A DNA stretch of 64,000 nt from NCBI GenBank assembly GCA_041736625.1, contig JBGSTG010000137.1, positions 36,896 to 100,895 of the forward strand, read 5' to 3'. The notes beneath the pieces were generated by a model that saw nothing but the letters and a program-made list of their open reading frames with translations, had not been told where the DNA came from and did no database searches. The translations under genes and the position numbers were made by a program. Source of the DNA: Saprospiraceae bacterium. Its GTDB lineage: Bacteria; Bacteroidota; Bacteroidia; Chitinophagales; Saprospiraceae. Shown piece after piece: positions 23,160 to 39,415 of this stretch; position 1 is the first letter of the stretch, and every line of letters begins with the position of its first letter.

Positions 23160-23160
23160 C

Positions 23161-24613: not shown

Positions 24614-26350
24614 ATGAGCGCACTTTTTCCTCCTGCTCCTGAACTGAAAAATTTCGCAGAGGTATTGCAATGGCAAGGCGTTAACCATCCGAACAAGACC
24701 ACATTCCGATTTTTAACCGACGGCGAGACCACCGAAGACGCCATTACTTATGGCCGGCTGGACGCCCGCGCCAAAGGCATCGCCGACAAATTGTCGGCAC
24801 ACTGCCAAAAAGGCGACCGCGTGCTTTTGCTGCTCACGCCCGGAATCGATTTCATTGCCGCCTTTTTCGGCTGCCTTTACGCCGGTTGTGTCGCCATTCC
24901 CACCTACCCGCACCTGCGACAAAAGAAGGACGGCATCCTGACGCGCATCCTGAATGTCGCAGCCGACGCCACGCCCAAAGTTATTCTCTCCAACGCTATT
25001 GTGGAGCGCGCTTCCGCCGCTTTTTTTGCCGAAACAGCACACACGAAGGACATTCCGTGGGTTGACGTAACGCAGATCGCCCCAATGAACGACCCTGACT
25101 GGAACAGCACACCGATAGACACGGACGATCTGGCCTTTCTGCAATATACCTCCGGCTCAACCAACACCCCCAAGGGCGTGATGGTCAGCCACGGTAACCT
25201 GATGCACAACGCCATGACAATCACCAACGCTTTCGGTCTCACGCCGGAAGACAGGTGTGTGCTCTGGCTGCCTCCCTACCACGACATGGGCCTGATCGGC
25301 GGCATCCTCACCCAGGTATTTGCCGGCGTGGAAACCATCCTGATGGCGCCCGCTTATTTCCTGCAACGCCCCATCCGTTGGTTGCAAGCCATAACCCGCT
25401 ACCGGGCTACCGCCTCCGGCGGCCCCAATTTTACGTACGACTACGCCGTCAAAAAAGTAAAACCGGAACAACTCGCAGAGCTGGACCTGAGTACCCTGGC
25501 GGTGGCGTTCAGCGGCGCAGAACCCATCAACGCCGACACGTTGCTGCGTTTTGCCGACTATTTCGCCCCAACCGGCTTTCAGAACAAAGCCTTTCTGCCC
25601 TGCTACGGCCTTGCCGAAGGCACTCTGATGATTACCGCCCAGCGCCGGGGCAACGGCTTTGTGGCGCACCGTTTCGACAAATCCGCGCTCGAACAACACC
25701 GCGTGGTACCCGATCCGGAAAACGGCCGCCTATTGGTTGGCTGTGGTGACACCATAGACGATACGGTGTTGCGCATCGTAAATCCCGAAAGCCTGCTGCC
25801 CACACCGGAGGGCCAGATCGGCGAGATTTGGGCTGGCGGCAGCAGCGTCGCCAAGGGATACTGGAATCGGCCTGAAGCCACCCGGGAAACGTTCAAGGCC
25901 TTTATCGCCGGCACCGGCGAAGGACCGTTTATGCGCACCGGCGACCTGGGATTTGTCCAAAACAACCAGCTTTTCATCACCGGCCGCATCAAATCGCTCA
26001 TCATCATCGACGGCAGCAACCACTACCCGCAAGACATTGAATGGACCGTCGAGCACTGTCACCCGGATATACAACCCCACGGGGCTGCTGCTTTTTCCGT
26101 TGACCTCGACGGTGCAGAAAAACTCATCATTGTCGCCGAACTCGACCCGCGCATGTTGCGCGACCTCAACGACGAGCAGGCGCGTGCCATCAAACGCGCC
26201 ATCACCGCGGCGGTATCCAACGAACATACACTGAGCGTGCACGACATCGTTTTCACCGGACGACTGCCCAAAACCACCAGCGGCAAAATCAAACACCATG
26301 AATGCCGCGCCGAATACCTCGAATCACTAACCAACCCCCAGGCGCCATGA
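24614..26350 (+). CDS. Fatty acyl-AMP ligase (FAAL-type ANL enzyme), stand-alone
   Basis: LAFLQYTSGSTNTPKGVMVSHGNLMHN, WLPPYHDMGLIG, GYWNRPE, FMRTGDLGF, ITGRIKSLIIIDGSNHYPQDIE and LPKTTSGKI. The stop overlaps the next start (ATGA). Confidence 0.85.
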   Translation: MSALFPPAPELKNFAEVLQWQGVNHPNKTTFRFLTDGETTEDAITYGRLDARAKGIADKLSAHCQKGDRVLLLLTPGIDFIAAFFGCLYAGCVAIPTYPHLRQKKDGILTRILNVAADATPKVILSNAIVERASAAFFAETAHTKDIPWVDVTQIAPMNDPDWNSTPIDTDDLAFLQYTSGSTNTPKGVMVSHGNLMHNAMTITNAFGLTPEDRCVLWLPPYHDMGLIGGILTQVFAGVETILMAPAYFLQRPIRWLQAITRYRATASGGPNFTYDYAVKKVKPEQLAELDLSTLAVAFSGAEPINADTLLRFADYFAPTGFQNKAFLPCYGLAEGTLMITAQRRGNGFVAHRFDKSALEQHRVVPDPENGRLLVGCGDTIDDTVLRIVNPESLLPTPEGQIGEIWAGGSSVAKGYWNRPEATRETFKAFIAGTGEGPFMRTGDLGFVQNNQLFITGRIKSLIIIDGSNHYPQDIEWTVEHCHPDIQPHGAAAFSVDLDGAEKLIIVAELDPRMLRDLNDEQARAIKRAITAAVSNEHTLSVHDIVFTGRLPKTTSGKIKHHECRAEYLESLTNPQAP

Positions 26351-28836
26351 ACAAAGCGCAAGACACCACCTTAGAAGATATCCGGGATTGGCTCCTGAAC
26401 AACATCGCCCAACGCCTGGAAATGAAACCCGAAGATATCCGGCTCGACGAGCCGGTGACCGCCCTGGGCCTGTCGTCCCGCGAAGCCATCATGATTTCCG
26501 GCGAACTGGAAGAATGGCTGGACTGCGAATTGTCCCCCGAAATCCTGTACGAATACCCCGAGATCGGCCTGCTTTCGCAAAAGATCATGGAGAAGCTCCA
26601 AAAACACGCATCCGAAGCGCCGGTCTTCCGCTCGCGGCCACGCGAAGGCAAAGACGAGATGGCCTACGATTCGTTCGTCGATCTGGTGCAGGCCCGGGCC
26701 CGGGAGATTCCGAACAAGGACATATTCATTTTTCTGGCCGACGGCGAAACGGAGACGGTGCGCATCAACATGGCCCAACTCGACCGGCGCGCCCGCGCAG
26801 TAGCTGCCCATTTGCAACAACATGGGGCCGACGGAAAACCCGTGCTGCTGGTGTACCCGCCGGGCGTCGAGTTCATCACCGGTTTCCTCGGTTGCCTGTA
26901 CGCCAAAGCCATTGCCGTGCCGGCCTACCCGCCCACCAAAAACCGGGGCATGGAGCGCCTGGATACCATTGCCGCCGACTGCGATGCCCACTTCGCCCTC
27001 ACGACAGCCGAAGGGATGGCGCAAATGCTGCGGAACAAAAAAGTGTCCGACGACTCATTCATCCGCCGCATTCACCTGATGGCCTCCGACACCATACCCG
27101 ACGACGAGGCCGTTCATTGGAAAAAGCCCCTGCTGAGCCGGCCCGATCTGTGCTTCCTGCAGTACACCTCCGGGTCCACCGGCAACCCCAAAGGCGTCAT
27201 GGTGTCGCACGGCAACATCCTGCACAACGTGAAAACCATGCGCGAAGCCTTCGACCTGCCGGAACACTTCAACATGGTGAGCTGGCTACCCATGTTTCAC
27301 GACATGGGGCTGATCGGCCACGTGTTGGGGCCCATCAATGCCGGTTGCACACAGGTAACCATGACACCCAACGTGTTCCTGGAAAAACCCGTCCGCTGGC
27401 TCAAGGCCATCTCCGGGCTGGAGCAAGTGTACACCACCGCGCCAAATTTTGCATTCGACTATTGTGTCGACAAAATCACCGACGCCGAGATGCAAGGCAT
27501 CGATCTCCGTTCCTGGCAACTGGTGTGCAACGGTTCCGAACCGGTGCGCGAAGACACCATGACGCGCTTCACGCAGCGCTTTGCGCCTTATGGTTTCCGG
27601 CGCAACGTATTTTTCCCCTCTTACGGCATGGCCGAAGCTACCCTGTTGATCTCCGTACGCGCGGACCAGTCCGCAGAGCCCAAAGTAGCTTACCTGAATG
27701 CCGAATTGCTTGAAAACAACCAGGTGGTAGCCGACGATGCCGATGCCGACAGCGCCGTAGCCATGGTCAGTTGCGGCGCGGCGCGGCACGGGCGGCTGAT
27801 CATTGCAAATCCGGAGACGCTGGAAAAATTGCCCGAGAACCGGGTCGGGGAAATCTGGTATAAAAGCGACAGCGTAGCGCAAGGCTACTGGAAGAAACCC
27901 GAACTCACCGAACGCACCTTTCAGGCTTATACCGCCGGCAGCGGAGAAGGGCCTTTTATGCGCACCGGCGACCTGGGATTTCTCCAACAGGGTGAGGTGT
28001 TCATTACCGGCCGCCTCAAGGACCTGATCATCATTCGGGGGCGCAACCACTACCCGCAGGACATTGAGGAGACCGTGCAGGGCTGTCACCCTGCGCTCAC
28101 CATCAATGCAGGCGCCGCGTTCACCGTCGACGCCCACGGCGAAGAACAACTAGTACTGGTGCAGGAGGTCGAGCGTACTGCTTTGCGCGCGCTCGACACC
28201 GCAGCCGTATTCGACGACATCCGGTCGGCCATTGCCGAGGAGCACAACATTGCAGTGTACGCCATCGTACTGTTGGCGCCCGGACAACTACCCCGTACTA
28301 CGAGCGGCAAGATCCAGCGCCGCGCCTCCAAGCGCGGATTCCTGGAAAACACGCTCAACCGTGTAGGCGATTGGAAAATGGAGCGTATGGACGTTCCTTC
28401 CGAAGCGCTGCACGGTTGGAATGCGGAAGAACTGCTCCGTTTGCCGCTACCCGAACGAACCGGCAATACCCAACAATACCTGCTGCACCTCATCGCCAAA
28501 ACCATGCGCATGGCGCCGGACCAGATAGACCCCACCAAACCGATCATCAACCTCGGTTTTGACTCCATTCATGCCATCGAGATCAAAAACCGGATAGAGA
28601 CCGACTTCGGCTTCGAACTGCCAGCCACCCGGCTGATGGAGGGCATCAACATCAACGACCTGGCAAGAGAAGCTGCCGAAAAACTGAAAGTCCGTTCGGA
28701 AGCACCTAAACCCGTCATCGCCGACGCTCAGGAGGGAATTGACGCCGACACAGCACGCGACTTGCTACTGGACATCGACAACCTCTCTTCCGAAGAAGTA
28801 GAACGACTCCTGGCAGCCCTGGATAGCAACGAATGA
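26347..28836 (+). CDS. Carrier-FAAL-carrier tridomain protein (ACP-FAAL-ACP)
   Basis: N-terminal carrier: LEDIRDWLLNNIAQRL..ALGLSSREAIMISGELEEWL. FAAL core: CFLQYTSGSTGNPKGVMVSHGNILHN, WLPMFHDMGLIG, GYWKKPE, FMRTGDLGF, LPRTTSGKI. C-terminal carrier: INLGFDSIHAIEIKNRIETDFG. Start at 26347 (Met16 of the tracked ORF), coupled by ATGA to the upstream gene. Confidence 0.85.
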   Translation: MNKAQDTTLEDIRDWLLNNIAQRLEMKPEDIRLDEPVTALGLSSREAIMISGELEEWLDCELSPEILYEYPEIGLLSQKIMEKLQKHASEAPVFRSRPREGKDEMAYDSFVDLVQARAREIPNKDIFIFLADGETETVRINMAQLDRRARAVAAHLQQHGADGKPVLLVYPPGVEFITGFLGCLYAKAIAVPAYPPTKNRGMERLDTIAADCDAHFALTTAEGMAQMLRNKKVSDDSFIRRIHLMASDTIPDDEAVHWKKPLLSRPDLCFLQYTSGSTGNPKGVMVSHGNILHNVKTMREAFDLPEHFNMVSWLPMFHDMGLIGHVLGPINAGCTQVTMTPNVFLEKPVRWLKAISGLEQVYTTAPNFAFDYCVDKITDAEMQGIDLRSWQLVCNGSEPVREDTMTRFTQRFAPYGFRRNVFFPSYGMAEATLLISVRADQSAEPKVAYLNAELLENNQVVADDADADSAVAMVSCGAARHGRLIIANPETLEKLPENRVGEIWYKSDSVAQGYWKKPELTERTFQAYTAGSGEGPFMRTGDLGFLQQGEVFITGRLKDLIIIRGRNHYPQDIEETVQGCHPALTINAGAAFTVDAHGEEQLVLVQEVERTALRALDTAAVFDDIRSAIAEEHNIAVYAIVLLAPGQLPRTTSGKIQRRASKRGFLENTLNRVGDWKMERMDVPSEALHGWNAEELLRLPLPERTGNTQQYLLHLIAKTMRMAPDQIDPTKPIINLGFDSIHAIEIKNRIETDFGFELPATRLMEGININDLAREAAEKLKVRSEAPKPVIADAQEGIDADTARDLLLDIDNLSSEEVERLLAALDSNE

Positions 28837-28885: not shown

Positions 28886-31800
28886 ATGTCCATTTCCCAG
28901 GATAAAAAGGAGCTGCTGAAACAATTGCTGGCTAAAAAGGCCGGCGAACAGGAGCCCGTCGTTTACCCTCTTTCATACGGCCAGCAGGCGTTGTGGTTCC
29001 TGCACCAGAACGCGCCGGGCAATGCGGCATACAACGTAGCCTTCACCGCCCGCATTCTCTCCCCCATCGATGTGGAAGCGTGGAAACGCGCCTGTCAGCG
29101 CCTGATCAACCGCCACCCCATCCTGCGCACCACTTACCAGATGAAGGACGGGCAGCTGCGCCAGGTGGTGCATGGGCTGATGCCGCTCGATTTCACCTAT
29201 GAAGAGGTGGGCGGACTCGGTGAAATCGACCTGTACAATCGCGTACGCGAGCACTACGCCAAACCCTTTCACCTCGAAGCCGGACCCGTGTGCCGCGTGT
29301 ACCTGTTCCGCAAGTCGGCCGATCACCACGTGCTGCTGTTCAACATCCACCACATTGCCTGCGACGGCGTGTCGACGTGGATCCTGCTGGAGGAGCTCCG
29401 CGATCTGTACTCCGCGGAGAGCGAAGGCCGCCGGCCAGCGTTGCCGCCACTGGCATCCACTTACCGCGATTTTGTGACGGCGCAGCAGGAATTGCTGTCG
29501 GGGGAAAAAGGCGAAGCCATGTGGCAGTACTGGAAAAACCAACTGCAGGGTCCGTTGCCCACGCTCGACCTGAGCACCGACAAGGTCCGCCCGCTGGTTC
29601 AAACCTTCAATGGGGGGTCGGTACCCGTCAAACTCAATGCATCCCTAACCGAAAGCCTGCGCGCCCTGGCCAAAAACGAAGGCGCCACGCTGTTTGCCGT
29701 ACTGGCCTCCGCCTTTCAGGTGTTGTTGCACAGCCTGAGCGGGCAAGACGACGTCCTGGTGGGCACGCCCACTACCGGCCGCGAAAAAAAGGAATTTCAA
29801 CCCGTGGTCGGTTATTTCGTCAATCCGGTGGTGTTGCGCGCCCAATTTGCCGACAACCCCGGCTTTTCCACTTTTTTGCAGCGCAACAAACAAACCATAC
29901 TGGGTGCGTTGTCCAACCAGGACTTCCCGTTTCCCCACCTGGTGGAAAAACTGCAACTGCCGCGGGACAAAAGCCGCTCGGCGCTCTTCCAGGTGTTTTT
30001 TAGCCTGCTCAAAGCCCAGGGAGACGACGCCGTGCAGGCGGTGCTGTCCGAAGACGATCCGAACGGCGTCTACGCATGGGGCAATTTGCAGATTCAGGCG
30101 TACGACATCGGCCAGCAGGAAGGGCAGTTCGACCTCACCCTGGCCCTCACCGAGAGCATGGGCGCCGTGAGCGGCAAACTCAAATACAACGCCGACCTGT
30201 TCGAGCCCGAAACTGCCGCCCGCTTTGCCCTGCATTACCAAACGATTCTCGAAGACATTGTCCGAAACCCTTCCAAACCGGTTTCCGAAATCAACCTCCT
30301 GACCGAGGCAGAAAAAAGGTGGCTCATCGAAGACCTCAACCGGACGGAGACCCCCTACCCTGCCGACCAATGTATGCACCAGCTCTTCGAAGCACGTGTG
30401 GATGCAAACCCCGATCAGATAGCCCTGAGCATGCCGGCACTGGCCGAAAAAGGATTGCCTTCCCAATTCACTTACCGCCTGCTCGACCAGAAAGCCAACC
30501 AATTGGCGCACTACCTCCGGCGGCTGGGTGTTGGCCCGGAGGTCAAAGTGGGCATTTGCGTGCACCGTTCTCCCGAGATGGTCATCGGCATGCTGGCCAT
30601 CCTCAAGGCCGGAGGCGCCTATGTACCCCTGGATCCCGACTATCCCGCAGAGCGGCTGGCCTACATCATTGAGGATGCCGGCCTGACCATTGTGCTGACC
30701 CAGGAAACGGCCGCCGCTCACCTTCCCGAGGGAGCTGTTACGCCTGTTTTTATGGATAAGGACAGGCAGGGCATCGCCGCCGGGCCCACCACCAGGCCGT
30801 CAGTAGATGTGCACGCCGGCAACCTGGCGTACATCATCTACACCTCCGGTTCCACCGGAAACCCCAAAGGCGTACTCATCGAACACCGCGGCGTGGCCAA
30901 CAAGCTCACCAACTTCAAACAAGACGTCCGCTTCGACCACAACCACCGCTTTACGCTCATCGCTTCTTACGCGTTCGACGCCAGCATCGGCCAACTGTTC
31001 TTGCCCCTGGTACAGGGCTGCCCGTTGTTTCTGATGCCCAAGGACAAACAGAACGACCCGGATTATTTCTGGGACTTCATGTTCGAAAATCGCATCAATG
31101 TGGTGTACACCACCGCTTCCTTCCTGAACCCCATGCTCGACAGCCCGCGTGACCTCCGGCCGTTGGGCGTCCAATACGTGTTCCTCGGGGCCGAAACCTT
31201 TCCTTTGCCCCTGCTAAACAAAATCCGGGAAAAACTCAACCCGCCAACCATCGTGAACATGTACGGGCCGACGGAAACCACGGTCAACTGCGTGATGCAC
31301 ACGGTGACGGGCACACCGAAAGGGCAAATCCCGCTGGGGCATCCGCTTCCGAATTACAAAGCCTATCTGCTGGATAAAAACGGGCAGATCGTGCCCGTGG
31401 GCGTCACCGCCGAAATACACATTGGCGGCCCGGCCGTTGCCCGGGGTTATCACAACCAACCGGAAACCACTGCCGAACGTTTTATTGCGGACCCGTTCAG
31501 CGATGTACCCGGCGCCCGACTCTATAAAAGTGGCGATTTGGGCAAATACCTGCCCGACGGCAAAATCGTGTTCATGGGCCGCGTCGACAAACAGCTGAAA
31601 GTCAATGGCTACCGGATAGAACCCGGCGAGGTGGAGGCCGCCCTGCTGCAACACGAATCTGTTAAGGAAGCCCTGGTAATCGCCCGCGAAGACAGCGCCG
31701 GCAACCACCGACTGGTGGCCTACCTCATTCCCGCTCCTGGCACAGACGTTCCCGGCATTCAGGACATGCGGAATTTCCTGCAGCAAAAGTTACCGACCTA

Positions 31801-34261
31801 CTTGGTGCCTACCGCATTTGTGGGGCTGGATCGGTTCCCCGTTACCCCCACCGGCAAAGTGGACACCAACGCATTGCCTGCTCCGGGCATCCGACCCGAG
31901 GTGGGCGCCGAATACGTCGCTCCGCGCACCGAGGTGGAGCGTTTACTGGCCGGCGTCTGGGCTGAGGTGCTGCATGTGGACCGGGTGGGTGTGCACGACA
32001 ACTTTTTCGACCTGGGCGGCGCCTCCGTGCAGAGCATTCAGGTGGTCAACAAGGCCAATGAACTCGGCTTTCAGATCAATGCAGGCATGATGTTCGAGTT
32101 CCAGACCGTCGAGCAACTTGCCGAAGCAGCCAGGACGACTTACCATCCGGAAGCGAAAAAGGCCGCCCCGGAAATGCCGGCTCCGGCGCCCCCTGTCGAT
32201 GCAGATACGGCCCACCTGAGGCCATCTTTCGGTGGTGACCACGCGGCCGTCCTGGTGGAAAGCATCGGCACCTACCTGCCCGAAAAGGCGGTGTCTACAC
32301 AGGAAATTCTGGAGGCATGCACCGCCAACGTTCGCTTCCCGATCGAAAAGATGACCGGTATTCAGACACGCCGCATGGCCGGCGAGGAGGAATTTGCCAT
32401 CGATATGGCCATCAAGGCAGCCAAGGACTGCCTCTCGCGGTCAAAATACCAAGCAGAAGAAATAGAGTTGCTCATTTGCTGCAACATTTCGCGCTTCGAC
32501 GGCCCCACCAAGGTCTCCTACGAGCCAAGTACCTCTATGAAGTTGCGCAAATACTTCGGCATGAAGAACGCCATTGGCTTCGACTTGTCGAACGCCTGTG
32601 CCACCATGTGGACTGCGGTCAACATCATAGACGCGTTCATCGCCAACGGCATCATCAAGTGCGGTATGGCGGTCAGTGGGGAGTACATCACCCACATTAC
32701 CCGGACGGCCATGCAGGAGCTGAGCGACAACTTTCTCGACCCCCGCATGGCCTGCCTGACGGTGGGCGACTCCGCCGCCGCCATCATCCTCGAGCGCTCC
32801 GACAACCCGCAGGTGGGTTTTCACAACCTGCACATGTTCACCGAAAGCGAACTGTGCCGGAACTGCATTGCCCACTTCACCGACCAGGTGCACGGGGGAG
32901 CCATCATGTACGTGGAGTCGGTCAAAGCCGCAGCATCGGCCATCCAACCCGGCGCTAAACTGGTACTCGACGTCATCCGCCGACACAACTGGCTGCCTGA
33001 GGTCAAATTTGACCACCTGCTCATGCACCAGACCTCCAGCACCACCATCAGCGACGCCCGCCGCGAAATCAACAGCCAAAACCAGCACATCATCGCTACC
33101 CCGGAGAACATGATCGACAACATCGCGCACCGGGGCAACACCGCCACCACCAGCCACTGGGTGGCCATTGTGGATCAGGTCAGGCAGGGCCGGATACACG
33201 CTGGCGACAAAATGGTGTTCGGCATTTCCGGCTCCGGGCACACCCTCGGCGCCGCGCTGTACACCTTCGACGATTTGCCCGACCGCATCCGCGAAAACCG
33301 CCCAAACCGGCGCAGCCAGCCCAATGGAATGCCTGCCACGCCGGCCGCCCGGCGCTGGAAGGCGCCCAACCCACGCGTGTCCGTTCAGGCCATCGGCACG
33401 GCCAACCCGGAAGCAGGCGTCGCCGCTGATGCACTCGAAATGGCCAAAAAGGCAGCACGCGATTGTCTGGCCTACGCCGGATATCGCAAGGAAGAAGTAG
33501 GACTGGTGATCCACACCGGCAACTACCGCAACAAGTTCCTCAGCGAACCCGCGGTGGCCTCGCTGCTCGCCGGCGACCTGGGCATCAACCCGCACCCGGA
33601 AACCGACAGCCACAACAAGTCGTTTGCATTCGACCTGCTCAACGGCGCGGCCGGCACCCTCGAAGCCTGCTACACCGCCATCCAGATGATGCAGGCAGGC
33701 AAATTCAACACCGCCCTGATCACCGCGTCCGAGGTAGAAAACAACCTCGAACACCGGCCGGACCAACTGCTGGGCCTACAGGAAACGGGATCCGCCATGC
33801 TGCTGCACCGGGATGAGGGTGGCGCCCGCGGCTTCGGCAACTTCTATCTGAGGAGTTTCCCTGCATACCTCGACACCCTCGACATTTACATGACCTGGAA
33901 AGGAAACATTTCTTTCCTTAATTTCATTAAAAATCCCAACCTTGAGGAATATTACCTGAGCTGCGTGCAGGCGTCGGTCACAGATTTTCTGGAATCGGAA
34001 AACCTGACGGTGAGCGACATTCGCTGGATTTTGCCGCCCCAGATCGGCCGCGAATGGGTAAACCGCCTGGGCGTTCAACTGGGCGCCGGAGTCGAAAAGA
34101 TCGTGAATGCCGCCTTGCCGGATAAAGATCTGTACACGTCCTCCCTGCCTTACAGCCTTCAGCAACTGGAGCGGAGCGGACAACCAAAGCCCGGCGATAT
34201 CGGCCTGCTCATTTCCGTCGGCTCAGGCATACAAGTCGGCTGTGCTTTGTACTATTTTTGA
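28886..34261 (+). CDS. NRPS module (C-A-T) fused to two C-terminal KASIII/FabH-like domains
   Basis: C domain: YPLSYGQQALWF, HHIACDGVS (29348-29368). A domain: LAYIIYTSGSTGNPKGV, FDASIGQ, NMYGPTETT, IGGPAVARGYHNQPE, YKSGDLGKY, VNGYRIEPGEVE, PTGKVD. T domain: FFDLGGASVQ (Ser codon 32024-32026). KASIII-1: FDLSNACATMW (Cys 32597-32599), LMHQTS, HRGNTATTS. KASIII-2: FDLLNGAAGT, LPPQIG, DLYTSSLP (triad absent). Confidence 0.85.
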   Translation: MSISQDKKELLKQLLAKKAGEQEPVVYPLSYGQQALWFLHQNAPGNAAYNVAFTARILSPIDVEAWKRACQRLINRHPILRTTYQMKDGQLRQVVHGLMPLDFTYEEVGGLGEIDLYNRVREHYAKPFHLEAGPVCRVYLFRKSADHHVLLFNIHHIACDGVSTWILLEELRDLYSAESEGRRPALPPLASTYRDFVTAQQELLSGEKGEAMWQYWKNQLQGPLPTLDLSTDKVRPLVQTFNGGSVPVKLNASLTESLRALAKNEGATLFAVLASAFQVLLHSLSGQDDVLVGTPTTGREKKEFQPVVGYFVNPVVLRAQFADNPGFSTFLQRNKQTILGALSNQDFPFPHLVEKLQLPRDKSRSALFQVFFSLLKAQGDDAVQAVLSEDDPNGVYAWGNLQIQAYDIGQQEGQFDLTLALTESMGAVSGKLKYNADLFEPETAARFALHYQTILEDIVRNPSKPVSEINLLTEAEKRWLIEDLNRTETPYPADQCMHQLFEARVDANPDQIALSMPALAEKGLPSQFTYRLLDQKANQLAHYLRRLGVGPEVKVGICVHRSPEMVIGMLAILKAGGAYVPLDPDYPAERLAYIIEDAGLTIVLTQETAAAHLPEGAVTPVFMDKDRQGIAAGPTTRPSVDVHAGNLAYIIYTSGSTGNPKGVLIEHRGVANKLTNFKQDVRFDHNHRFTLIASYAFDASIGQLFLPLVQGCPLFLMPKDKQNDPDYFWDFMFENRINVVYTTASFLNPMLDSPRDLRPLGVQYVFLGAETFPLPLLNKIREKLNPPTIVNMYGPTETTVNCVMHTVTGTPKGQIPLGHPLPNYKAYLLDKNGQIVPVGVTAEIHIGGPAVARGYHNQPETTAERFIADPFSDVPGARLYKSGDLGKYLPDGKIVFMGRVDKQLKVNGYRIEPGEVEAALLQHESVKEALVIAREDSAGNHRLVAYLIPAPGTDVPGIQDMRNFLQQKLPTYLVPTAFVGLDRFPVTPTGKVDTNALPAPGIRPEVGAEYVAPRTEVERLLAGVWAEVLHVDRVGVHDNFFDLGGASVQSIQVVNKANELGFQINAGMMFEFQTVEQLAEAARTTYHPEAKKAAPEMPAPAPPVDADTAHLRPSFGGDHAAVLVESIGTYLPEKAVSTQEILEACTANVRFPIEKMTGIQTRRMAGEEEFAIDMAIKAAKDCLSRSKYQAEEIELLICCNISRFDGPTKVSYEPSTSMKLRKYFGMKNAIGFDLSNACATMWTAVNIIDAFIANGIIKCGMAVSGEYITHITRTAMQELSDNFLDPRMACLTVGDSAAAIILERSDNPQVGFHNLHMFTESELCRNCIAHFTDQVHGGAIMYVESVKAAASAIQPGAKLVLDVIRRHNWLPEVKFDHLLMHQTSSTTISDARREINSQNQHIIATPENMIDNIAHRGNTATTSHWVAIVDQVRQGRIHAGDKMVFGISGSGHTLGAALYTFDDLPDRIRENRPNRRSQPNGMPATPAARRWKAPNPRVSVQAIGTANPEAGVAADALEMAKKAARDCLAYAGYRKEEVGLVIHTGNYRNKFLSEPAVASLLAGDLGINPHPETDSHNKSFAFDLLNGAAGTLEACYTAIQMMQAGKFNTALITASEVENNLEHRPDQLLGLQETGSAMLLHRDEGGARGFGNFYLRSFPAYLDTLDIYMTWKGNISFLNFIKNPNLEEYYLSCVQASVTDFLESENLTVSDIRWILPPQIGREWVNRLGVQLGAGVEKIVNAALPDKDLYTSSLPYSLQQLERSGQPKPGDIGLLISVGSGIQVGCALYYF

Positions 34262-34282: not shown

Positions 34283-35434
34283 ATGAACACAAAACGCAAC
34301 GTATTGATTGAGGACACCACCCTGCGCGAGGGTGAACAAATGGCCCGGGTGGTGTTCACCGAAGACCAGAAGCGCCGCATCCTGGACGGGCTGTACGAGG
34401 CCCGCGTACCCTACGCCGAAGTAGGCATTCCGGTAATGGGCGCGGCCGAACTGCGCGACCTGCTCAACCTCATACGCGATTATCGCGAACCCATGCTCAT
34501 CGGATGGAACCGCGGCATGCGCTCCGATCTGGAGCACTCCGCACGCGCCGGCTTCCGCGGTGTGCACATCGGCATTCCCACTTCGGAGGCCCACCTGAAA
34601 GGCCAACTCAAAAAAGACACCAACTGGGTGCTCGACGTGGCCTGCGAACTGGTCGAATTCTGCCGCCAGGAGGGCATGGAGATCATCTCCGTGAGCGCCA
34701 TCGACATGAGCCGCTCCAAGATCGACTTTCTGCAGGAGTACGCCCGAACACTCGAACGGGCAGGAGCTACCCGGCTGCGACTGTCGGACACCATCGGCAT
34801 TTTTACACCGGAAAAAACGCGCGAAGTGGTGCGGGCCATCCGCTCGGTATCCAACATTACCCTGCAGATGCACATGCACAACGACTACGGCCTCTCGCTG
34901 GCGAATATGCTGGCGGGCGTAGACGAAGGCGCCGAGCAGGTGCAGGTGACGATCAACGGCCTGGGTGAACGCAACGGCATCACGGCCCTGCACCAGGCAG
35001 CGGTGGCCCTCGAACTGCTGTACAACTGCGAAACCGGCATCAACCTCAAGGCACTCCTTCCCCTGGCCCGGGAGGTAGCCGACTTCACCCACTTCCCCAT
35101 CGCCAACAACGAGCCAATCATCGGACGGGGCGCTTTCAGCCACGAGTCGGGCATACACGTAGACGGCATGCTCAAATCGAGAGACAGCTTCCAGCCTTTC
35201 GACCCCGAGATCGTAGGCCGGGAGCACGAGTTTGTACTGGGCAAACATTCGGGATCGAGCGCCCTGCAGTGGTTCCTGCACCAACAAGGCATCGAGGTGA
35301 CCCGCGACGAGGCCGCCGAACTGCTGCCGTTCGTGCGCGAGTTCGCCACCGCGCAAGGCGGAAGCCTGGAACCCAAGTTCTTAGGGCTGTTTTGGCAGTT
35401 ATATAAGTCCAAAACGATGGACAAGGTATTTTAG
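34283..35434 (+). CDS. HMGL-family 2-oxoacid:acyl-CoA condensing enzyme (homocitrate / isopropylmalate / citramalate synthase-like, short NifV-like form)
   Basis: IEDTTLREGEQ, repeated (beta/alpha)8 blocks, LRLSDTIGIFTPEKT, HMHNDYGLSLANMLAG, INGLGERNG and HESGIHVDG. 383 aa, with no LeuA-type C-terminal regulatory domain. Confidence 0.8.
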   Translation: MNTKRNVLIEDTTLREGEQMARVVFTEDQKRRILDGLYEARVPYAEVGIPVMGAAELRDLLNLIRDYREPMLIGWNRGMRSDLEHSARAGFRGVHIGIPTSEAHLKGQLKKDTNWVLDVACELVEFCRQEGMEIISVSAIDMSRSKIDFLQEYARTLERAGATRLRLSDTIGIFTPEKTREVVRAIRSVSNITLQMHMHNDYGLSLANMLAGVDEGAEQVQVTINGLGERNGITALHQAAVALELLYNCETGINLKALLPLAREVADFTHFPIANNEPIIGRGAFSHESGIHVDGMLKSRDSFQPFDPEIVGREHEFVLGKHSGSSALQWFLHQQGIEVTRDEAAELLPFVREFATAQGGSLEPKFLGLFWQLYKSKTMDKVF

Positions 35435-36976: not shown

Positions 36977-37963
36977 CTACCGCCCCCCCAGCCAAGCCAG
37001 CGTCTCGCCCACCGACTGTTCCAAGGGTCTGTACGAGTATCCCAATTCCCGGATGGCCTTCTCACTGGAAAAATCCCAGTAACGGGTGTACTTGCGCACC
37101 AACTCGGGGGTGATCATCGGCGTGGCGCCAAACATACGCGCCATACGGATTTGGGCGTGCGAGAAGGCCAGCAGCATGGGCAAAGGCACACCGTACATCC
37201 GGTACGTCCTCCCACTGACGCGGCCTATCGTGTCGAAAAATTGCCGGAACGATGCATTTTCGCCACCCAGGATGTACCGTTCGCCCGGCCGGCCCTTTTG
37301 CATGGCCAGCAGGTGCCCGTTCACCACATCATCCACGTGCACGTAACTGCCTGTTGACGAGCCGTCTCCCGGCAAAAAGCGAAATTTACCCCGGATGTAC
37401 CGTTGCATGACCACTACCTCGCCATTGCTGTCGCCCAGGGCCCCTGGGCCAAACACGCGGGTGGGATTAACGATGACAACCTCCGGCCCTTCGCCAATGT
37501 TGGAACGGATGTACGCCTCCAGCCTGGCTTTGGAGCGCTCGTAAGCCGTCATGTGTGCCGGATCACCCTGGGCCGACTCGTCCAGCACGCGCCCGGGAGG
37601 GCTGGCGCCCATCACCCCGCCTGTGGAGGTGACCACCACCCGCGCCACACCCGCCTGGCGGGCGGCGTGCAGCACCGACAACCCGCCGAGAAAATTGATG
37701 CGGTCGAATATTTCCGGGTCCGGGGACCACGCCCGCGCAAATGCCGCCAGGTGGAACGCTTTGGAGCAACCGGCAATCGCGACATCAATACTTTCGCGCC
37801 GGTCCAGGTCGCCCGTAAACAAGCGAACCTGGGGGTGTGCGAGCGTGTTTGCCTTTTGTGGGTCGCGCACCAATGCATGCACAAAAAAGCCTTCGTCGAC
37901 CAACCTACTGACCAGTGCGGAGCCAATGAGCCCTGTAGCTCCGGTGACAAATATTTTTTCCAT
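36977..37963 (-). CDS. Extended short-chain dehydrogenase (NAD-dependent epimerase/dehydratase; 3-beta-HSD / dihydroflavonol-reductase-like)
   Basis: MEKIFVTGATGLIGSALVSRL Rossmann motif, catalytic YERSK (YxxxK) and VNPTRVFGPG. 328 aa. Confidence 0.85.
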   Translation of the reverse strand: MEKIFVTGATGLIGSALVSRLVDEGFFVHALVRDPQKANTLAHPQVRLFTGDLDRRESIDVAIAGCSKAFHLAAFARAWSPDPEIFDRINFLGGLSVLHAARQAGVARVVVTSTGGVMGASPPGRVLDESAQGDPAHMTAYERSKARLEAYIRSNIGEGPEVVIVNPTRVFGPGALGDSNGEVVVMQRYIRGKFRFLPGDGSSTGSYVHVDDVVNGHLLAMQKGRPGERYILGGENASFRQFFDTIGRVSGRTYRMYGVPLPMLLAFSHAQIRMARMFGATPMITPELVRKYTRYWDFSSEKAIRELGYSYRPLEQSVGETLAWLGGR

Positions 37964-38731: not shown

Positions 38732-39415
38732 CTATTTACCGGCTAATTCGACGGCTGGTACTTCCTCCAGAGAAAACGTGTCTATCTCCCGGTCGGATGC
38801 CAGGTGGCACGCATACCCTGCACGCACCGGCACGTGCCGGAGGTGCCACAGCCTGCCCTCCAGTAAAACCTGGTTGCCCAGCGCGTTTACCGTGTCCAAA
38901 GCGTTGTACAGACCGCGGCCCTCTGCCTTGCACACCGCTTCTTTTTTGGTCCAGATGGAAAAAAACAAGTCGACAGGGTCTTCCAGCGTATGCAACAGGC
39001 GCCACTCCTCGGGACACAGGATGGAGCGGAAATCGCGCAGGCGAATCGCCGCCATTTGCTCTACATCGATACCAACCGGGCCCCCATGGGAAACAGCCAC
39101 TACAACCCAGTCACCCGAGTGCGCGATATTGAAATCAGGAAATCCGGTCAGCGACGGGCGCTTGTAGTCGTTCCAGGTTACCTGGTCCAACACATCAGGC
39201 CGGTCTTCCAGCCCAAGTGCCCGGAGCAACAACAGCCGGCCAAAAAACGTTGCCTGCCGGTCGGGCCACCGGACGTACCGGAGGATGCCAGCTCTGGCCA
39301 AAGGCGGAAGCCGGGCCATGTTTTCCGCCCATACGTCTGCGGGGAGCGGCTGGGCATTGCGGCAATACAGGATTTGCATGCTACTAAAAGCGCAAAGGTA
39401 TGGAAGATCGCGCAT
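38732..39415 (-). CDS. Sfp-type 4'-phosphopantetheinyl transferase
   Basis: FNIAHSGDWVVVAVS, GPVGIDVEQ and FFSIWTKKEAVCKAEGRG are the three PPTase motifs. An alternative start is MQILY at 39379. Confidence 0.8.
   Translation of the reverse strand: MRDLPYLCAFSSMQILYCRNAQPLPADVWAENMARLPPLARAGILRYVRWPDRQATFFGRLLLLRALGLEDRPDVLDQVTWNDYKRPSLTGFPDFNIAHSGDWVVVAVSHGGPVGIDVEQMAAIRLRDFRSILCPEEWRLLHTLEDPVDLFFSIWTKKEAVCKAEGRGLYNALDTVNALGNQVLLEGRLWHLRHVPVRAGYACHLASDREIDTFSLEEVPAVELAGK

What the first reader, a model, noticed from the sequence alone, without database searches (positions are those of the whole stretch)
32230..34261. NRPS terminates in a fused KASIII didomain: one catalytically intact, one with the whole Cys-His-Asn triad replaced
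After the T domain and a Pro/Ala linker, the protein continues with two FabH-like domains.
- Domain 1 keeps all three FabH catalytic positions: FDLSNACATMW (Cys codon 32597-32599), LLMHQTS (His) and HRGNTATTS (Asn).
- Domain 2 aligns to the same blocks but reads FDLLNGAAGT (Cys to Gly, 33644-33646), ILPPQIG (His to Pro) and DLYTSSLP (Asn lost).

FabH enzymes are homodimers, so an active plus dead pair in one chain looks like a covalent pseudo-heterodimer. The closest analogy I know is PqsBC of Pseudomonas alkylquinolone synthesis: PqsC carries the nucleophilic Cys and PqsB is catalytically silent. KASIII-like enzymes are also known to join two carrier-bound chains, as in MxnB/CorB pyrone formation, DarB dialkylresorcinols, OleA and LstA/LstB head-to-head Claisen condensation. 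Here the pair sits where a TE would be, which suggests chain release by C-C (or C-O) bond formation between the PCP-bound aminoacyl or N-acyl-aminoacyl unit and an ACP-bound acyl chain. I am not aware of a described C-A-T-KASIII-KASIII' architecture.
Basis: partly seen in the sequence, partly recalled or inferred. Interest (0 to 1): 0.86.

Follow-up and report, generated by a model that had tools for sequence, protein, structure and literature searches.

The report
NRPS with fused LstAB-like ketosynthase pair
A lipid-type peptide synthetase from a Saprospiraceae bacterium ends, where a releasing thioesterase normally sits, in one chain holding both halves of the two-protein lipstatin-type condensing enzyme LstA/LstB; this probably releases the product by joining it to a second fatty chain through a new carbon-carbon bond, and the design is widespread but apparently unstudied.

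Summary
ORF 28886-34261 (1791 aa) reads C-A-T-KASIII-KASIII'. The first KASIII domain (D1) keeps Cys1238/His1381/Asn1418.

It is not an assembly artefact: ten orthologues at 44-100% identity carry the same uninterrupted fusion. D2 is under purifying selection (dN/dS 0.11).

The pair is a covalent fusion of the two subunits of the lipstatin/nocardiolactone KAS-III heterodimer. D1 matches the LstA-like gene of a Streptomyces lstABCDEF-type cluster (31% identity, E 4e-56). D2 matches the adjacent LstB-like gene (27%, E 4e-25). The cross comparisons are much weaker. Glu1554 of D2 aligns with the Glu that is essential in LstB (E60) and OleA (E117), and it is invariant in the homologues examined (121 didomains, 28 full-length fusions).

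The most likely mechanism is a non-decarboxylative Claisen condensation that off-loads the T-bound N-acyl-aminoacyl chain onto a second FAAL/ACP-delivered fatty acyl chain. An LstD/OleD-family reductase lies nearby.

The didomain family is large (332 clusters at 50% identity, E<1e-30). It occurs free-standing or at the end of NRPS/PKS lines in Mycobacterium, Planctomycetes, Actinomycetes and Bacteroidota. I found no paper describing it. I rate it a new variant of a known kind.

The parts
24614..26350 (+). Stand-alone fatty acyl-AMP ligase (FAAL), 578 aa. Proposed loader of one of the two ACPs of the next protein.
   Evidence: Pfam AMP-binding plus AMP-dom_DIP2-like. NCBIfam best hits are FAAL/FadD32-type, E 5e-139. 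The same gene precedes the NRPS in L004, L006 and L007.
26302..28836 (+). ACP-FAAL-ACP tridomain protein, 844 aa, with two carrier domains. The start overlaps the upstream FAAL by 49 nt.
   Evidence: Pfam finds two PP-binding stretches and one FAAL. The N-terminal carrier has the motif LGLSS and the C-terminal carrier LGFDS at residue 752. Orthologues in L006 and L007 are annotated PP-binding/AMP-binding/PP-binding.
28961..30325 (+). Condensation domain (residues 26-480) with an intact HHIACDG motif at residue 155. Proposed N-acylation of the T-bound amino acid with an acyl-ACP.
   Evidence: Pfam E 3e-107. The closest solved C domains are elongation-type (Txo1/Txo2, TycC, E about 1e-71), not starter-type (E about 1e-13). 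The motif is kept in orthologues.
30386..31858 (+). Adenylation domain (residues 501-991). Specificity code DAGYFGMVNK, substrate unassigned.
   Evidence: Pfam. The code was extracted. It is identical in all nine full-length close orthologues and matches no standard code that I know (reference codes from memory).
31943..32128 (+). Thiolation (PCP) domain. The phosphopantetheine Ser1047 sits in an LGGAS motif.
   Evidence: Pfam PP-binding. The 'GGAS' core is kept in 26 of the 28 fused homologues besides the window (GGTS and GGSS in the other two). Codon confirmed.
32141..32245 (+). Pro/Ala-rich T-D1 linker (residues 1086-1120).
   Evidence: Sequence. It is the least constrained segment (71% identity and dN/dS 0.32 against L004).
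32246..33280 (+). D1, the LstA-like KAS-III domain (residues 1121-1465). Key residues: Glu1213 (32522-32524), Cys1238 (32597-32599), His1381 (33026-33028), Asn1418 (33137-33139).
   Evidence: FabH structures E 3e-18. LstA-like protein of Streptomyces plasmid NZ_CP107820.1: 31% identity, 174 bits, E 4e-56. Glu, Cys, His and Asn are invariant in 121 of 121 homologues. dN/dS 0.037.
33281..33367 (+). D1-D2 linker (residues 1466-1494).
   Evidence: The only low-confidence stretch of the AF2 model is didomain residues 362-375.
33368..34261 (+). D2, the LstB-like triad-less KAS-III domain (residues 1495-1791, plus stop). Key residues: Glu1554 (33545-33547), Ala1588 at the Cys position (33647-33649), Pro1718 at the His position (34037-34039), Asp1748 at the Asn position (34127-34129).
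   Evidence: FabH E 1e-10. The N-terminal half hits OleA best, E 2e-6, with Glu1554 on OleA Glu117. LstB-like protein: 27% identity, E 4e-25, against E 5e-13 for LstA-like. Glu1554 is invariant in 121 of 121 and 28 of 28 homologues. dN/dS 0.11.
34283..35434 (+). Homocitrate/isopropylmalate-synthase-like gene, 21 nt downstream. Possibly supplies an unusual amino acid. The link to the NRPS rests on synteny only.
   Evidence: Pfam HMGL-like plus HCS_D2. NCBIfam NifV/IPMS hits fall below cut-off. PDB IPMS/HCS hits at E 1e-54. The gene is kept downstream of the NRPS in L004, L005 and L006, including L005 where no FAAL was seen among the ORFs of at least 200 aa within 6.7 kb upstream and 10 kb downstream of the NRPS.
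36977..37963 (-). NAD-dependent epimerase/3-beta-HSD-family reductase. Candidate reductase for the beta-keto product (LstD/OleD-like role).
   Evidence: Pfam Epimerase/3Beta_HSD. NCBIfam OleD 2-alkyl-3-oxoalkanoate reductase E 4e-23 and HpnA E 4e-72, both below cut-off. 27% identity over the full length to the LstD-like gene of the lst-type cluster, E 1e-14. An SDR lies near the didomain gene in 7 of 11 loci.
38732..39415 (-). Sfp-type phosphopantetheinyl transferase, needed to activate the three carrier domains.
   Evidence: Pfam ACPS plus AASDHPPT_N. A PPTase also sits next to the didomain gene in L001 and L008.
22362..24497 (.). Two lipid hydroxylase genes upstream: OlsC-like Asp/Asn beta-hydroxylase family (22362-23159, +) and FA_hydroxylase family (23247-24497, -). 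Possible tailoring enzymes.
   Evidence: Pfam. NCBIfam OlsC E 1e-77 and OlsE E 3e-15, both below cut-off. A FA_hydroxylase gene also lies upstream of the FAAL in L006.

Best explanation
The last 676 residues are a single-chain version of the LstA/LstB (NltA/NltB) KAS-III heterodimer, which is an OleA-type head-to-head condensing enzyme. It is attached to the end of a one-module lipo-NRPS in place of a thioesterase.

Shown:
- D1 carries the Glu-Cys-His-Asn set of non-decarboxylative KAS-III enzymes.
- D2 has lost the triad but keeps the Glu that, in LstB and OleA, is supplied by the partner subunit and is essential.
- The two halves are specifically related to LstA-like and LstB-like proteins.
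- The fusion is conserved and both halves are under purifying selection.

Inferred mechanism:
1. The two FAALs load two fatty acids onto the two ACPs of the ACP-FAAL-ACP protein.
2. The C domain uses one acyl-ACP to N-acylate the amino acid held on the T domain.
3. Cys1238 of D1 takes one thioester-bound chain.
4. Glu1554, reaching across the pseudo-dimer interface from D2, makes the alpha-carbanion.
5. A non-decarboxylative Claisen condensation joins the N-acyl-aminoacyl unit and the second fatty acyl chain and frees the T domain.
6. Hydrolysis gives an alpha-branched beta-keto acid. This is either reduced by the neighbouring LstD/OleD-family reductase or loses CO2 to give an N-acyl-alpha-aminoketone or amino alcohol.

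The end product would be a two-tailed amide lipid. Which partner acts as nucleophile is open. Either direction gives the same product class after decarboxylation.
For: Homology, half by half, to a Streptomyces plasmid cluster with lstABCDEF gene content and order (KAS-III, 'hypothetical', AMP-ligase, 3-beta-HSD, NRPS, formyltransferase):
- D1 vs LstA-like: 174 bits, E 4e-56.
- D2 vs LstB-like: 89 bits, E 4e-25.
- D2 vs LstA-like: 55 bits. D1 vs LstB-like: 40 bits.
- In those alignments Cys1238 and Asn1418 fall on C128 and N305, and Glu1554 on E59, of the plasmid proteins. These match published LstA C128/H271/N305 and LstB E60 (PMC12141560).

Published precedent:
- LstB and NltB lack the triad, and the LstB Glu is essential (bioRxiv 10.1101/856955).
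- Glu1554 aligns with OleA Glu117.
- The Glu-to-Cys spacing in D1 is 25 residues, against 24-26 in NocG, PpyS and OleA (PMC9486936 Table 1).

Conservation:
- Glu/Cys/His/Asn of D1 and Glu of D2 are invariant in 121 of 121 didomains. The triad replacements in D2 are conserved.
- The same holds in 28 full-length NRPS fusions.
- dN/dS is 0.037 for D1 and 0.11 for D2, against 0.08-0.10 for the C and A domains.

Structure: AF2 pTM 0.94 for the pair. Each half matches FabH or OleA with TM up to 0.9.

Context:
- FAAL plus ACP-FAAL-ACP lie directly upstream here and in L004, L006 and L007.
- An SDR lies nearby in 7 of 11 loci, and the one here is 27% identical to LstD-like.
- The Mycobacterium eburneum locus is followed by MmpS/MmpL lipid-export genes and two SDRs.
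- NocG shows that OleA-type condensation can use FAAL/ACP-tethered substrates.
Against: - There is no biochemical evidence. Substrates, direction of the Claisen reaction and the product are all inferred.
- I could not read the model coordinates. The FabH-like packing and the distance from Glu1554 to Cys1238 are therefore untested.
- D1 keeps its own invariant Glu1213, which would point into the triad-less D2 pocket. I cannot explain that.
- No OleC/LstC-type beta-lactone synthetase or OleB was identified, so this is not an ole or lst pathway.
- Many family loci show only one carrier-bound chain (FAAL-PKS-NRPS). The second substrate there is unknown.
- The C domain groups with elongation-type rather than starter-type C domains.
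- LstAB, NltAB and OleA use acyl-CoAs, not carrier-bound chains.
- By overall similarity to solved structures, D1 scores higher against FabH (69 bits) than against OleA (41 bits).
Confidence: 0.6

Rival explanations
1. D1 acts as a FabH-type decarboxylative ketosynthase. It takes the N-acyl-aminoacyl chain from the T domain and extends it with malonyl-ACP or malonyl-CoA, possibly followed by cyclisation (tetramate- or pyrone-like release, as with the terminal KS of fungal TAS1). D2 is only a structural partner.
For: The best solved-structure matches of D1 are genuine FabH enzymes, with the full Cys-His-Asn triad. The NCBIfam FabH models give the highest, though sub-threshold, scores. A terminal KS after C-A-T is known from TAS1 (my own knowledge, not checked here).
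Against: The FabH position equivalent to Phe87 is an invariant Glu in both halves, which is the hallmark of non-decarboxylative OleA/PpyS/NocG/LstB enzymes. D1 is far closer to an LstA-like protein (174 bits) than to any FabH (69 bits). FabH model scores are below the curated cut-offs (189 vs 249 and 182 vs 292). No malonyl-loading AT or malonyl-specific carrier lies in the cluster, whereas two FAALs and two ACPs do.
Confidence: 0.15
2. The didomain is a KAS-III-like acyltransferase (CerJ/ChlB3/DpsC type). It off-loads the T-bound chain onto a hydroxyl or amine of a second molecule, for example a hydroxy fatty acid made by the neighbouring hydroxylases, forming an ester or amide rather than a C-C bond.
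For: KAS-III-like enzymes with intact nucleophile and His are known to form C-O bonds (ChlB3, PMC9573744, listed; others from my own knowledge). Lipid hydroxylase genes and a WS/DGAT gene occur in some loci. ChlB3 and DpsC appear among weak structure-sequence hits of D2.
Against: Those hits are very weak (E 0.19-0.95). The specific half-by-half relationship is to the C-C-forming LstA/LstB pair. An invariant partner-subunit Glu has no known role in the acyltransferases.
Confidence: 0.12
3. The didomain is a PqsBC-like enzyme. An acyl group on the D1 cysteine is condensed with a free beta-keto acid in a decarboxylative reaction, and D2 is a silent PqsB-like partner.
For: The overall logic is the same: an active plus a triad-less KAS-III pair. 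PqsC and PqsD appear among the D1 hits.
Against: The PqsC hit is marginal (E 5e-4, against 3e-18 for FabH and 4e-56 for LstA-like). No pqsA/D/E-type or anthranilate genes lie nearby. D1 keeps the Asn that PqsC lacks (the PqsC dyad is from my own knowledge).
Confidence: 0.04
4. The fusion is an assembly or gene-calling artefact, or D2 is a decaying duplicate with no function.
For: None found.
Against: An identical protein occurs on four independent contigs. Orthologues at 93, 75, 74, 66, 65, 64, 62, 60, 60 and 44% identity all carry the uninterrupted fusion. D2 has dN/dS 0.11 and its own invariant motifs.
Confidence: 0.01

Closest known systems
LstA/LstB of lipstatin biosynthesis (Streptomyces toxytricini), and NltA/NltB of nocardiolactone
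   Same: One KAS-III subunit holds the Cys-His-Asn triad. The other is a divergent, triad-less KAS-III subunit that supplies an essential Glu. The two halves are about 22-23% identical to each other. D1 and D2 are specifically homologous to the LstA-like and LstB-like proteins of an lst-type cluster, and the catalytic residues align. An LstD-family reductase lies nearby.
   Different: Here the two subunits are one polypeptide, and that polypeptide is fused to C-A-T. The substrates are expected to be carrier-bound (T and ACP), not acyl-CoAs. One partner is an N-acyl-amino acid. No LstC/NltC beta-lactone synthetase or formyltransferase is present. Identity is only 27-31%.
OleA (Xanthomonas campestris), the homodimeric head-to-head Claisen thiolase
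   Same: KAS-III fold (TM about 0.85). Same Glu/Cys/His/Asn set. Glu117, from the partner subunit, aligns with Glu1554 and Glu1213. The reaction is a non-decarboxylative Claisen condensation that gives an alpha-alkyl-beta-keto acid.
   Different: OleA is a symmetric homodimer with two active sites and works with OleBCD on acyl-CoAs. Sequence similarity is low (E 1e-9 for D1).
NocG of nocuolin A biosynthesis
   Same: An OleA-type condensation that uses two fatty acyl chains activated by a FAAL and tethered to a carrier protein. It has an E/C/H/N set with the same Glu-to-Cys spacing.
   Different: NocG is a stand-alone single-domain protein, so presumably a homodimer. It has no NRPS partner and no triad-less half.
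PqsBC (Pseudomonas alkylquinolone synthesis)
   Same: A heterodimer of an active KAS-III subunit and one lacking catalytic residues.
   Different: It is only a marginal sequence relative (E 5e-4). Its chemistry is decarboxylative, with a free beta-keto acid, and it has a Cys-His dyad without Asn (my own knowledge). No essential partner Glu is known for it.
TAS1 (fungal tenuazonic acid synthetase, C-A-T-KS) and fused KS-CLF didomains of PUFA and type II systems (my own knowledge, not checked here)
   Same: In TAS1 a thiolase-fold condensing domain takes the place of a TE after C-A-T. In KS-CLF an active and an inactive ketosynthase sit in one chain or one obligate pair.
   Different: Those are KAS-I/II-type ketosynthases that work decarboxylatively. 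They are not KAS-III and not LstAB-like.

Membership tests
LstAB/NltAB-type heteromeric KAS-III (non-decarboxylative Claisen) | Subunit A has the KAS-III fold with a Cys-His-Asn triad. | tested here: met
   D1 has Cys1238/His1381/Asn1418, aligned to FabH and to C128/N305 of an LstA-like protein. They are invariant in 121 of 121 homologues.
LstAB/NltAB-type heteromeric KAS-III (non-decarboxylative Claisen) | Subunit B is a divergent KAS-III-like protein without the triad but with a conserved, essential Glu (LstB E60). | tested here: met
   D2 has Ala/Pro/Asp at the triad positions. Glu1554 aligns with E59 of the LstB-like protein and with OleA E117, and is invariant. That this Glu is essential here was not tested.
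LstAB/NltAB-type heteromeric KAS-III (non-decarboxylative Claisen) | Specific sequence relationship of each half to LstA and to LstB respectively. | tested here: met
   Reciprocal BLASTP gives D1-LstA-like 174 bits and D2-LstB-like 89 bits, against 55 and 40 bits for the crossed pairs. The reference is an lst-type cluster on plasmid NZ_CP107820.1, not the S. toxytricini proteins themselves.
LstAB/NltAB-type heteromeric KAS-III (non-decarboxylative Claisen) | Two separate, co-clustered polypeptides that form a heterodimer. | tested here: not met
   Here, and in the homologues examined, the two halves are one chain joined by a linker of about 30 residues. It is therefore a fused variant, not a canonical member.
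LstAB/NltAB-type heteromeric KAS-III (non-decarboxylative Claisen) | The partner Glu lies in the active site of the triad-bearing half (FabH-like dimer packing). | not testable with these tools
   The AF2 model is confident as one body (pTM 0.94), but the coordinates cannot be read. Foldseek aligns only one half at a time.
LstAB/NltAB-type heteromeric KAS-III (non-decarboxylative Claisen) | Condenses two acyl thioesters without decarboxylation to an alpha-alkyl-beta-keto acid. | not testable with these tools
   This needs biochemistry.
ole / lst / nlt beta-lactone or olefin pathway | Co-occurrence with an OleC/LstC beta-lactone synthetase and an OleD/LstD reductase (plus OleB for olefins). | tested here: not met
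   An LstD/OleD-family SDR is present. Both AMP-ligases are FAAL-type, and the stand-alone one is only 25% identical to LstC-like. No OleB-like hydrolase was identified.
FabH (initiating beta-ketoacyl-ACP synthase III) | Scores above the curated FabH model cut-offs and has a hydrophobic residue (E. coli Phe87) in the partner loop. | tested here: not met
   NCBIfam PRK09352 scores 189 bits against a cut-off of 249, and TIGR00747 scores 182 against 292. The loop residue is Glu in both halves, where the aligned FabHs have Phe.
PqsBC | Close similarity to PqsC and PqsB, and a pqs/anthranilate gene context. | tested here: not met
   PqsC E 5e-4 only. No pqs-type neighbours.
Lipo-initiating NRPS module | FAAL and ACP upstream, an N-terminal C domain with an intact HHxxxDG motif, an A domain, and a T domain with its Ser. 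| tested here: met
   The C domain resembles elongation-type more than starter-type C domains.

The most novel reading that the evidence does not exclude
The family is a thiotemplated, PLP-independent route to ceramide-like two-tailed lipids. An NRPS builds an N-acyl-aminoacyl thioester. The fused LstAB-type pair joins it by Claisen condensation to a second fatty acyl chain. Loss of CO2 and reduction by the neighbouring SDR then give an N-acyl amino ketone or amino alcohol.

Where the A domain is Ser-specific, this would be 3-ketodihydroceramide or dihydroceramide made without serine palmitoyltransferase. Nine of 57 fused members have a Ser-like code, and one of them sits next to an SDR and an MGDG-synthase-like glycosyltransferase.

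The Mycobacterium eburneum locus, with MmpS/MmpL export genes, would then encode an unknown envelope lipid class.
Probability: 0.2. Interest if true: 0.85.

Novelty: new variant of a known kind. Interest (0 to 1): 0.66.

Why it matters
NRPS and PKS lines are normally off-loaded by thioesterase, reductase or terminal condensation domains. A conserved terminal domain pair that releases the chain by head-to-head Claisen condensation with a second lipid chain would add another release logic. It would also define a large, phylogenetically wide class of unexplored lipid-like products.

Because the two halves are one chain, the family is also a natural, soluble single-chain form of the LstAB/NltAB heterodimer, whose separate subunits are poorly soluble or inactive on their own. 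That makes it a good handle for the structural study of this enzyme type, which has no solved structure. It could also be a portable off-loading part for engineering branched lipopeptides.

Cultured carriers make it directly testable: Mycobacterium eburneum, Roseimaritima ulvae, Nonomuraea and Shivajiella.

Tried and rejected
- Literature: eight full-text searches used terms for fused, tandem or pseudo-dimeric KAS-III, KAS-III domains in NRPS, and non-decarboxylative chain release. None found a paper describing this didomain or an NRPS-KASIII fusion. The primary LstAB paper (PMID 30763089) is not held. A review cites it when mentioning 'naturally occurring fusion chimeras', so fused LstAB homologues may have been noted there. 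I could not check.
- Exact look-up of the window protein failed, although an identical database protein exists (P0276).
- NCBIfam has no dedicated model for the didomain. All hits are generic and below cut-off.
- Foldseek against the PDB gave only single-domain KAS-III matches (TMq up to 0.44). No solved two-domain chain of this kind exists, and the interdomain packing could not be compared.
- Assigning the A-domain substrate from its code failed: DAGYFGMVNK matches no standard code at more than 6 of 10 positions.
- I considered whether the stand-alone FAAL could be an OleC/LstC-type beta-lactone synthetase and rejected it. It is FAAL-like by NCBIfam and only generically similar to LstC-like.
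- I considered an offset active site in D2 and rejected it. No conserved His or Asn accompanies the only well-conserved nearby Cys (Cys1595).
- I considered PqsBC membership and an assembly artefact and rejected both (see rival explanations).

Full report
**Observation.** The window has one uninterrupted ORF at 28886-34261 (+), 1791 aa.

Pfam places the following domains:
- Condensation, residues 26-480
- AMP-binding plus AMP-binding_C, 501-991
- PP-binding, 1020-1081
- ACP_syn_III, 1232-1319
- ACP_syn_III_C, two stretches, the best at 1702-1789

The first KAS-III domain (D1, about 1121-1465) aligns over its full length with solved FabH enzymes (E 3e-18). Cys1238, His1381 and Asn1418 fall on the FabH triad.

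The second domain (D2, about 1495-1791) also aligns over its full length with FabH (E 1e-10) and with D1 (22% identity, E 1e-9). In both alignments the triad positions of D2 read Ala1588, Pro1718 and Asp1748.

- The Cys equivalent is Ala1588 (33647-33649), not Gly1587. Gly1587 pairs with Ala1237.
- The Asn is replaced by an Asp that is itself almost invariant in the family.

**Not an artefact, not a relic.**
- An identical protein is on record from four contigs, and a 93% identical one comes from a Saprospiraceae MAG with the same gene order.
- Nine further full-length orthologues at 44-75% identity have the same C-A-T-KASIII-KASIII' layout.
- dN/dS against the 93% orthologue is 0.037 for D1 and 0.11 for D2. 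The C and A domains give 0.08-0.10 and the T-D1 linker gives 0.32. D2 is therefore maintained by selection.
- The neighbouring genes encode SprB/T9SS cargo proteins. This fits the Saprospiraceae (Bacteroidota) assignment.

**A large family.**
- A search with the 676-aa didomain found at least 660 clusters at 90% identity. Most are free-standing proteins of about 672 aa that contain both halves.
- An exhaustive search of 50%-identity representatives gave 332 clusters at E<1e-30.
- Among the best 150, about half are free-standing. The rest carry the didomain at the C-terminus of proteins of about 1230-1385, 1730-1840, 2440-2580 or 3850-3930 residues.
- Named carriers include Mycobacterium eburneum and M. 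talmoniae, Roseimaritima ulvae, Nonomuraea, Shivajiella, Roseivirga, Ktedonobacteraceae and Aminicenantes.

In an alignment of 121 didomains:
- D1 Cys, His and Asn are invariant.
- The D2 replacements are conserved: Gly/Ser at 1587, Ala/Ser/Gly at 1588, Pro-Pro at 1717-1718, Asp at 1748.
- Both halves keep an invariant Glu-Pro in the loop about 25 residues before the nucleophile position: Glu1213 in D1 and Glu1554 in D2.

The same holds for 28 full-length NRPS fusions. There the D2 Glu is 28 of 28, and the D1 Glu is Asp in two.

**What the Glu means.**
- The N-terminal half of D2 finds OleA as its best solved relative. The alignment puts Glu1554 on OleA Glu117.
- In FabH the same position is Phe.
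- Published work identifies this Glu as the base of non-decarboxylative, head-to-head KAS-III enzymes: OleA E117/C143, PpyS E105/C129, NocG E100/C125 (PMC9486936). In OleA it is contributed by the partner subunit (bioRxiv 10.1101/856955).
- The lipstatin enzyme LstAB and the nocardiolactone enzyme NltAB are heterodimers. LstA/NltA carries the triad (LstA C128/H271/N305). LstB/NltB lacks the triad but supplies an essential Glu (LstB E60) (PMC12141560).
- This is exactly the division of labour seen between D1 and D2.

**Direct homology to LstA/LstB.** A tblastn search of plasmids found Streptomyces records in which the didomain matches two adjacent genes. The best hit, NZ_CP107820.1, has this gene order:
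- KAS-III (353 aa)
- 'hypothetical protein' (285 aa)
- AMP-ligase family
- 3-beta-HSD/epimerase
- NRPS
- formyltransferase

That is the gene content and order I know for lstABCDEF (Bai et al. 2014, my own knowledge).

| Comparison | Identity | Bits | E-value |
|---|---|---|---|
| D1 vs LstA-like | 31% | 174 | 4e-56 |
| D2 vs LstB-like | 27% | 89 | 4e-25 |
| D2 vs LstA-like | 23% | 55 | 5e-13 |
| D1 vs LstB-like | 21% | 40 | 2e-8 |

In these alignments Cys1238 and Asn1418 fall on residues 128 and 305 of the LstA-like protein. Glu1554 falls on Glu59 of the LstB-like protein, within one residue of the published LstA/LstB numbering. D1 is much closer to this protein than to any FabH (69 bits) or OleA (41 bits) in the PDB. 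I conclude that the didomain is a covalently fused LstA-LstB homologue.

**Structure.** AlphaFold2, run with a 91-sequence family alignment, gives pLDDT 91 and pTM 0.94 for the 676 residues. Only the inter-domain linker (didomain residues 362-375) is disordered. So high a pTM for a two-domain chain implies a confidently fixed mutual arrangement. Foldseek matches each half to FabH (TM about 0.9) and OleA (about 0.85). It finds no solved chain that covers both halves. I could not read coordinates, so FabH-like packing and the Glu1554-Cys1238 distance remain inferred.

**Context in the window**:
- OlsC-like hydroxylase (22362-23159, +)
- FA_hydroxylase (23247-24497, -)
- FAAL (24614-26350)
- ACP-FAAL-ACP protein (26302-28836), both carriers with their Ser
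- the NRPS
- homocitrate/IPMS-like gene, 21 nt downstream
- on the other strand: Lipase_3 protein, 3-beta-HSD/epimerase SDR, CAAX protease and PPTase

**Context in related loci:**
- FAAL plus ACP-FAAL-ACP recur upstream in L004, L006 and L007. A FAAL-ACP precedes the 44% orthologue in L008, which is followed by a PPTase, an SDR and an MGDG-synthase-like glycosyltransferase.
- Free-standing didomain genes lie beside FAAL-PKS-(luciferase-like)-C-A-T assembly lines: Shivajiella L001 and Nonomuraea L002. L003 has the same kind of line but carries an A-T-didomain fusion.
- In Mycobacterium eburneum the order is FAAL, two PKS modules, C-A-T-didomain, MmpS, MmpL, then two SDRs.
- In Roseimaritima ulvae a 3929-aa FAAL-PKS-NRPS ends in the didomain and has a divergent 3-beta-HSD-type SDR next to it.
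- An SDR lies near the didomain gene in 7 of 11 loci. The one in the window is 27% identical over its whole length to the LstD-like reductase (E 1e-14) and hits the OleD model at E 4e-23.
- All of this points to lipid-like products whose beta-keto group is reduced.

**Which amino acid.** I extracted the ten Stachelhaus positions from the A domain that precedes the didomain in 57 fused proteins, the window's own included. The reference codes are from my memory.
- 14 are Gly-like (DILQLG[LM][IV]WK).
- 9 are Ser-like (DVWH.SL[IV]DK).
- About ten are aromatic/Tyr-like.
- Two are Gln-like and one is Asn-like.
- The Saprospiraceae clade, including the window, has DAGYFGMVNK throughout, which I cannot assign.
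- The homocitrate/IPMS-like gene stays next to the NRPS even in L005, where no FAAL was seen among the ORFs of at least 200 aa within 6.7 kb upstream and 10 kb downstream of the NRPS. It may therefore supply an unusual, chain-extended amino acid. That is speculation.

**Mechanism.**
Shown:
- the domain order
- the residue pattern
- the homology to LstA/LstB
- the conservation
- the gene context

Inferred:
1. Two FAALs load two fatty acids on the two ACPs.
2. The C domain N-acylates the T-bound amino acid. It is closest to elongation-type C domains, as expected for one descended from PKS-NRPS lines.
3. D1 Cys1238 is acylated.
4. Glu1554 from D2 generates an alpha-carbanion.
5. A non-decarboxylative Claisen condensation couples the N-acyl-aminoacyl unit to the second acyl chain and empties the T domain.

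In OleA the Cys-bound chain is the nucleophile (PMC8180931). If the T-bound chain is the one passed to Cys1238, the amino acid alpha-carbon would attack the fatty acyl-ACP. That resembles the logic of PLP-dependent alpha-oxoamine synthases, and the frequency of Gly and Ser modules would fit it. If instead the fatty acyl chain sits on Cys1238, it attacks the T-bound thioester. Either way, hydrolysis gives a beta-keto acid. After loss of CO2 this becomes an N-acyl-alpha-aminoketone, reducible to a ceramide-like amino alcohol. Alternatively it is reduced first, as in the lst and ole pathways.

**Rivals.** A FabH-like malonyl-dependent extension, a CerJ/ChlB3-like acyl transfer, and a PqsBC-like reaction are each disfavoured. 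The reasons are the Glu signature, the much stronger similarity to LstA/LstB, the sub-threshold FabH model scores, and the marginal PqsC and ChlB3 hits. None is excluded without biochemistry.

**Comparison and novelty.** The enzyme works like LstAB/NltAB and meets their residue and homology criteria. It fails the criterion of two separate subunits, and it lacks the beta-lactone synthetase of those pathways. It is therefore a fused, assembly-line-embedded variant rather than a member of the lst, nlt or ole pathways. Eight literature searches found no description of such a didomain or of an NRPS ending in KAS-III domains. The primary LstAB paper could not be read and may mention fused homologues. 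I rate it a new variant of a known kind. It is of solid interest to natural-product enzymologists, and cultured carriers make it testable.

**Unexplained:**
- Glu1213 of D1 is invariant although it should point into the triad-less D2 pocket. The LstA-like protein keeps the same Glu.
- Asp1748 is conserved at the former Asn position of D2.
- The second substrate is unknown in loci with only one visible carrier-bound chain.

Noticed in passing
window 9001-16701 (+) and 16698-20336 (-): Two convergent giant surface-protein genes (2566 and 1212 aa) with SprB repeats, Ig-like/HYR domains and T9SS C-terminal sorting domains (CHU_C, Por_Secre_tail). The second starts with a thioredoxin/redoxin-like domain, an odd combination for a T9SS cargo.
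   Followed up: no
window 26302-28836 (+): The FAAL is flanked by two carrier domains (ACP-FAAL-ACP). Its start overlaps the upstream stand-alone FAAL by 49 nt. The tridomain is conserved in L004, L006 and L007. Two loaders and two carriers suggest two different fatty acids.
   Followed up: partly
window 34283-35434 (+); L004 12053-13204; L005 12972-14111; L006 16152-17303: A short (about 380 aa) homocitrate/isopropylmalate-synthase-like gene stays downstream of the NRPS in four Saprospiraceae-type loci. In L005 nothing else among the ORFs of at least 200 aa within about 7-10 kb of the NRPS is shared with the window. It co-occurs with the unassigned A-domain code DAGYFGMVNK.
   Followed up: partly
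window 32006-32026 (T domain, residues 1041-1047): The carrier domain upstream of the didomain has the motif LGGAS instead of the usual LGGHS/LGGDS. The 'GGAS' core is kept in 26 of the 28 fused homologues besides the window, from many phyla (the other two read GGTS and GGSS). It may mark a T domain adapted to dock on the KAS-III pair.
   Followed up: no
window 32522-32524 (Glu1213), 34127-34129 (Asp1748), 33668-33670 (Cys1595): D1 keeps its own invariant loop Glu, although its partner pocket in D2 has no triad. D2 has a nearly invariant Asp at the former Asn position and a nearly invariant Cys seven residues after the former Cys position. Together these hint that the D2 pocket may still bind or process something.
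   Followed up: partly
window 22362-23159 (+) and 23247-24497 (-): An OlsC-like acyl 2-hydroxylase (E 1e-77, below cut-off) and a FA_hydroxylase-family protein with weak OlsE similarity sit just upstream of the FAALs. This suggests the product is hydroxylated like ornithine lipids. A FA_hydroxylase gene also lies upstream in L006.
   Followed up: no
window 35450-36955 (-), 37967-38692 (-): A 501-aa protein with a class-3 lipase domain (no NCBIfam match) and a CAAX-protease-family membrane protein lie between the NRPS operon and the PPTase. Their role is unknown.
   Followed up: no
L009 (Mycobacterium eburneum SMSD01000004.1, 30363-55699): A cultured mycobacterium carries FAAL, two PKS modules and a C-A-T-KASIII-KASIII' protein, followed by MmpS/MmpL and two SDR genes. 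This looks like an uncharacterised envelope-lipid locus.
   Followed up: partly
L008 (JGI 3300023212 Ga0256295_10001314): The 44% orthologue has a Ser-like A-domain code and is followed by a PPTase, a short-chain reductase and an MGDG-synthase-like glycosyltransferase. This fits a glycosylated serine-derived two-tailed lipid.
   Followed up: partly
L011 (Streptomyces sp. NBC_00536 plasmid NZ_CP107820.1, 69851-91734): A complete lipstatin-type lstABCDEF-like cassette sits on a 268-kb linear plasmid. Three further Streptomyces plasmids give a match that spans a KAS-III gene and the adjacent 'hypothetical protein', as the LstA/LstB-like pair does in H1; their flanking genes were not examined. The LstB-like gene is annotated only as 'hypothetical protein'.
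   Followed up: partly
window 39812-41137 (+), 41145-44003 (-): These are a HemL-type glutamate-1-semialdehyde aminomutase (score above the subfamily cut-off) and a 952-aa M16 peptidase. They are probably housekeeping genes that mark the edge of the cluster.
   Followed up: no
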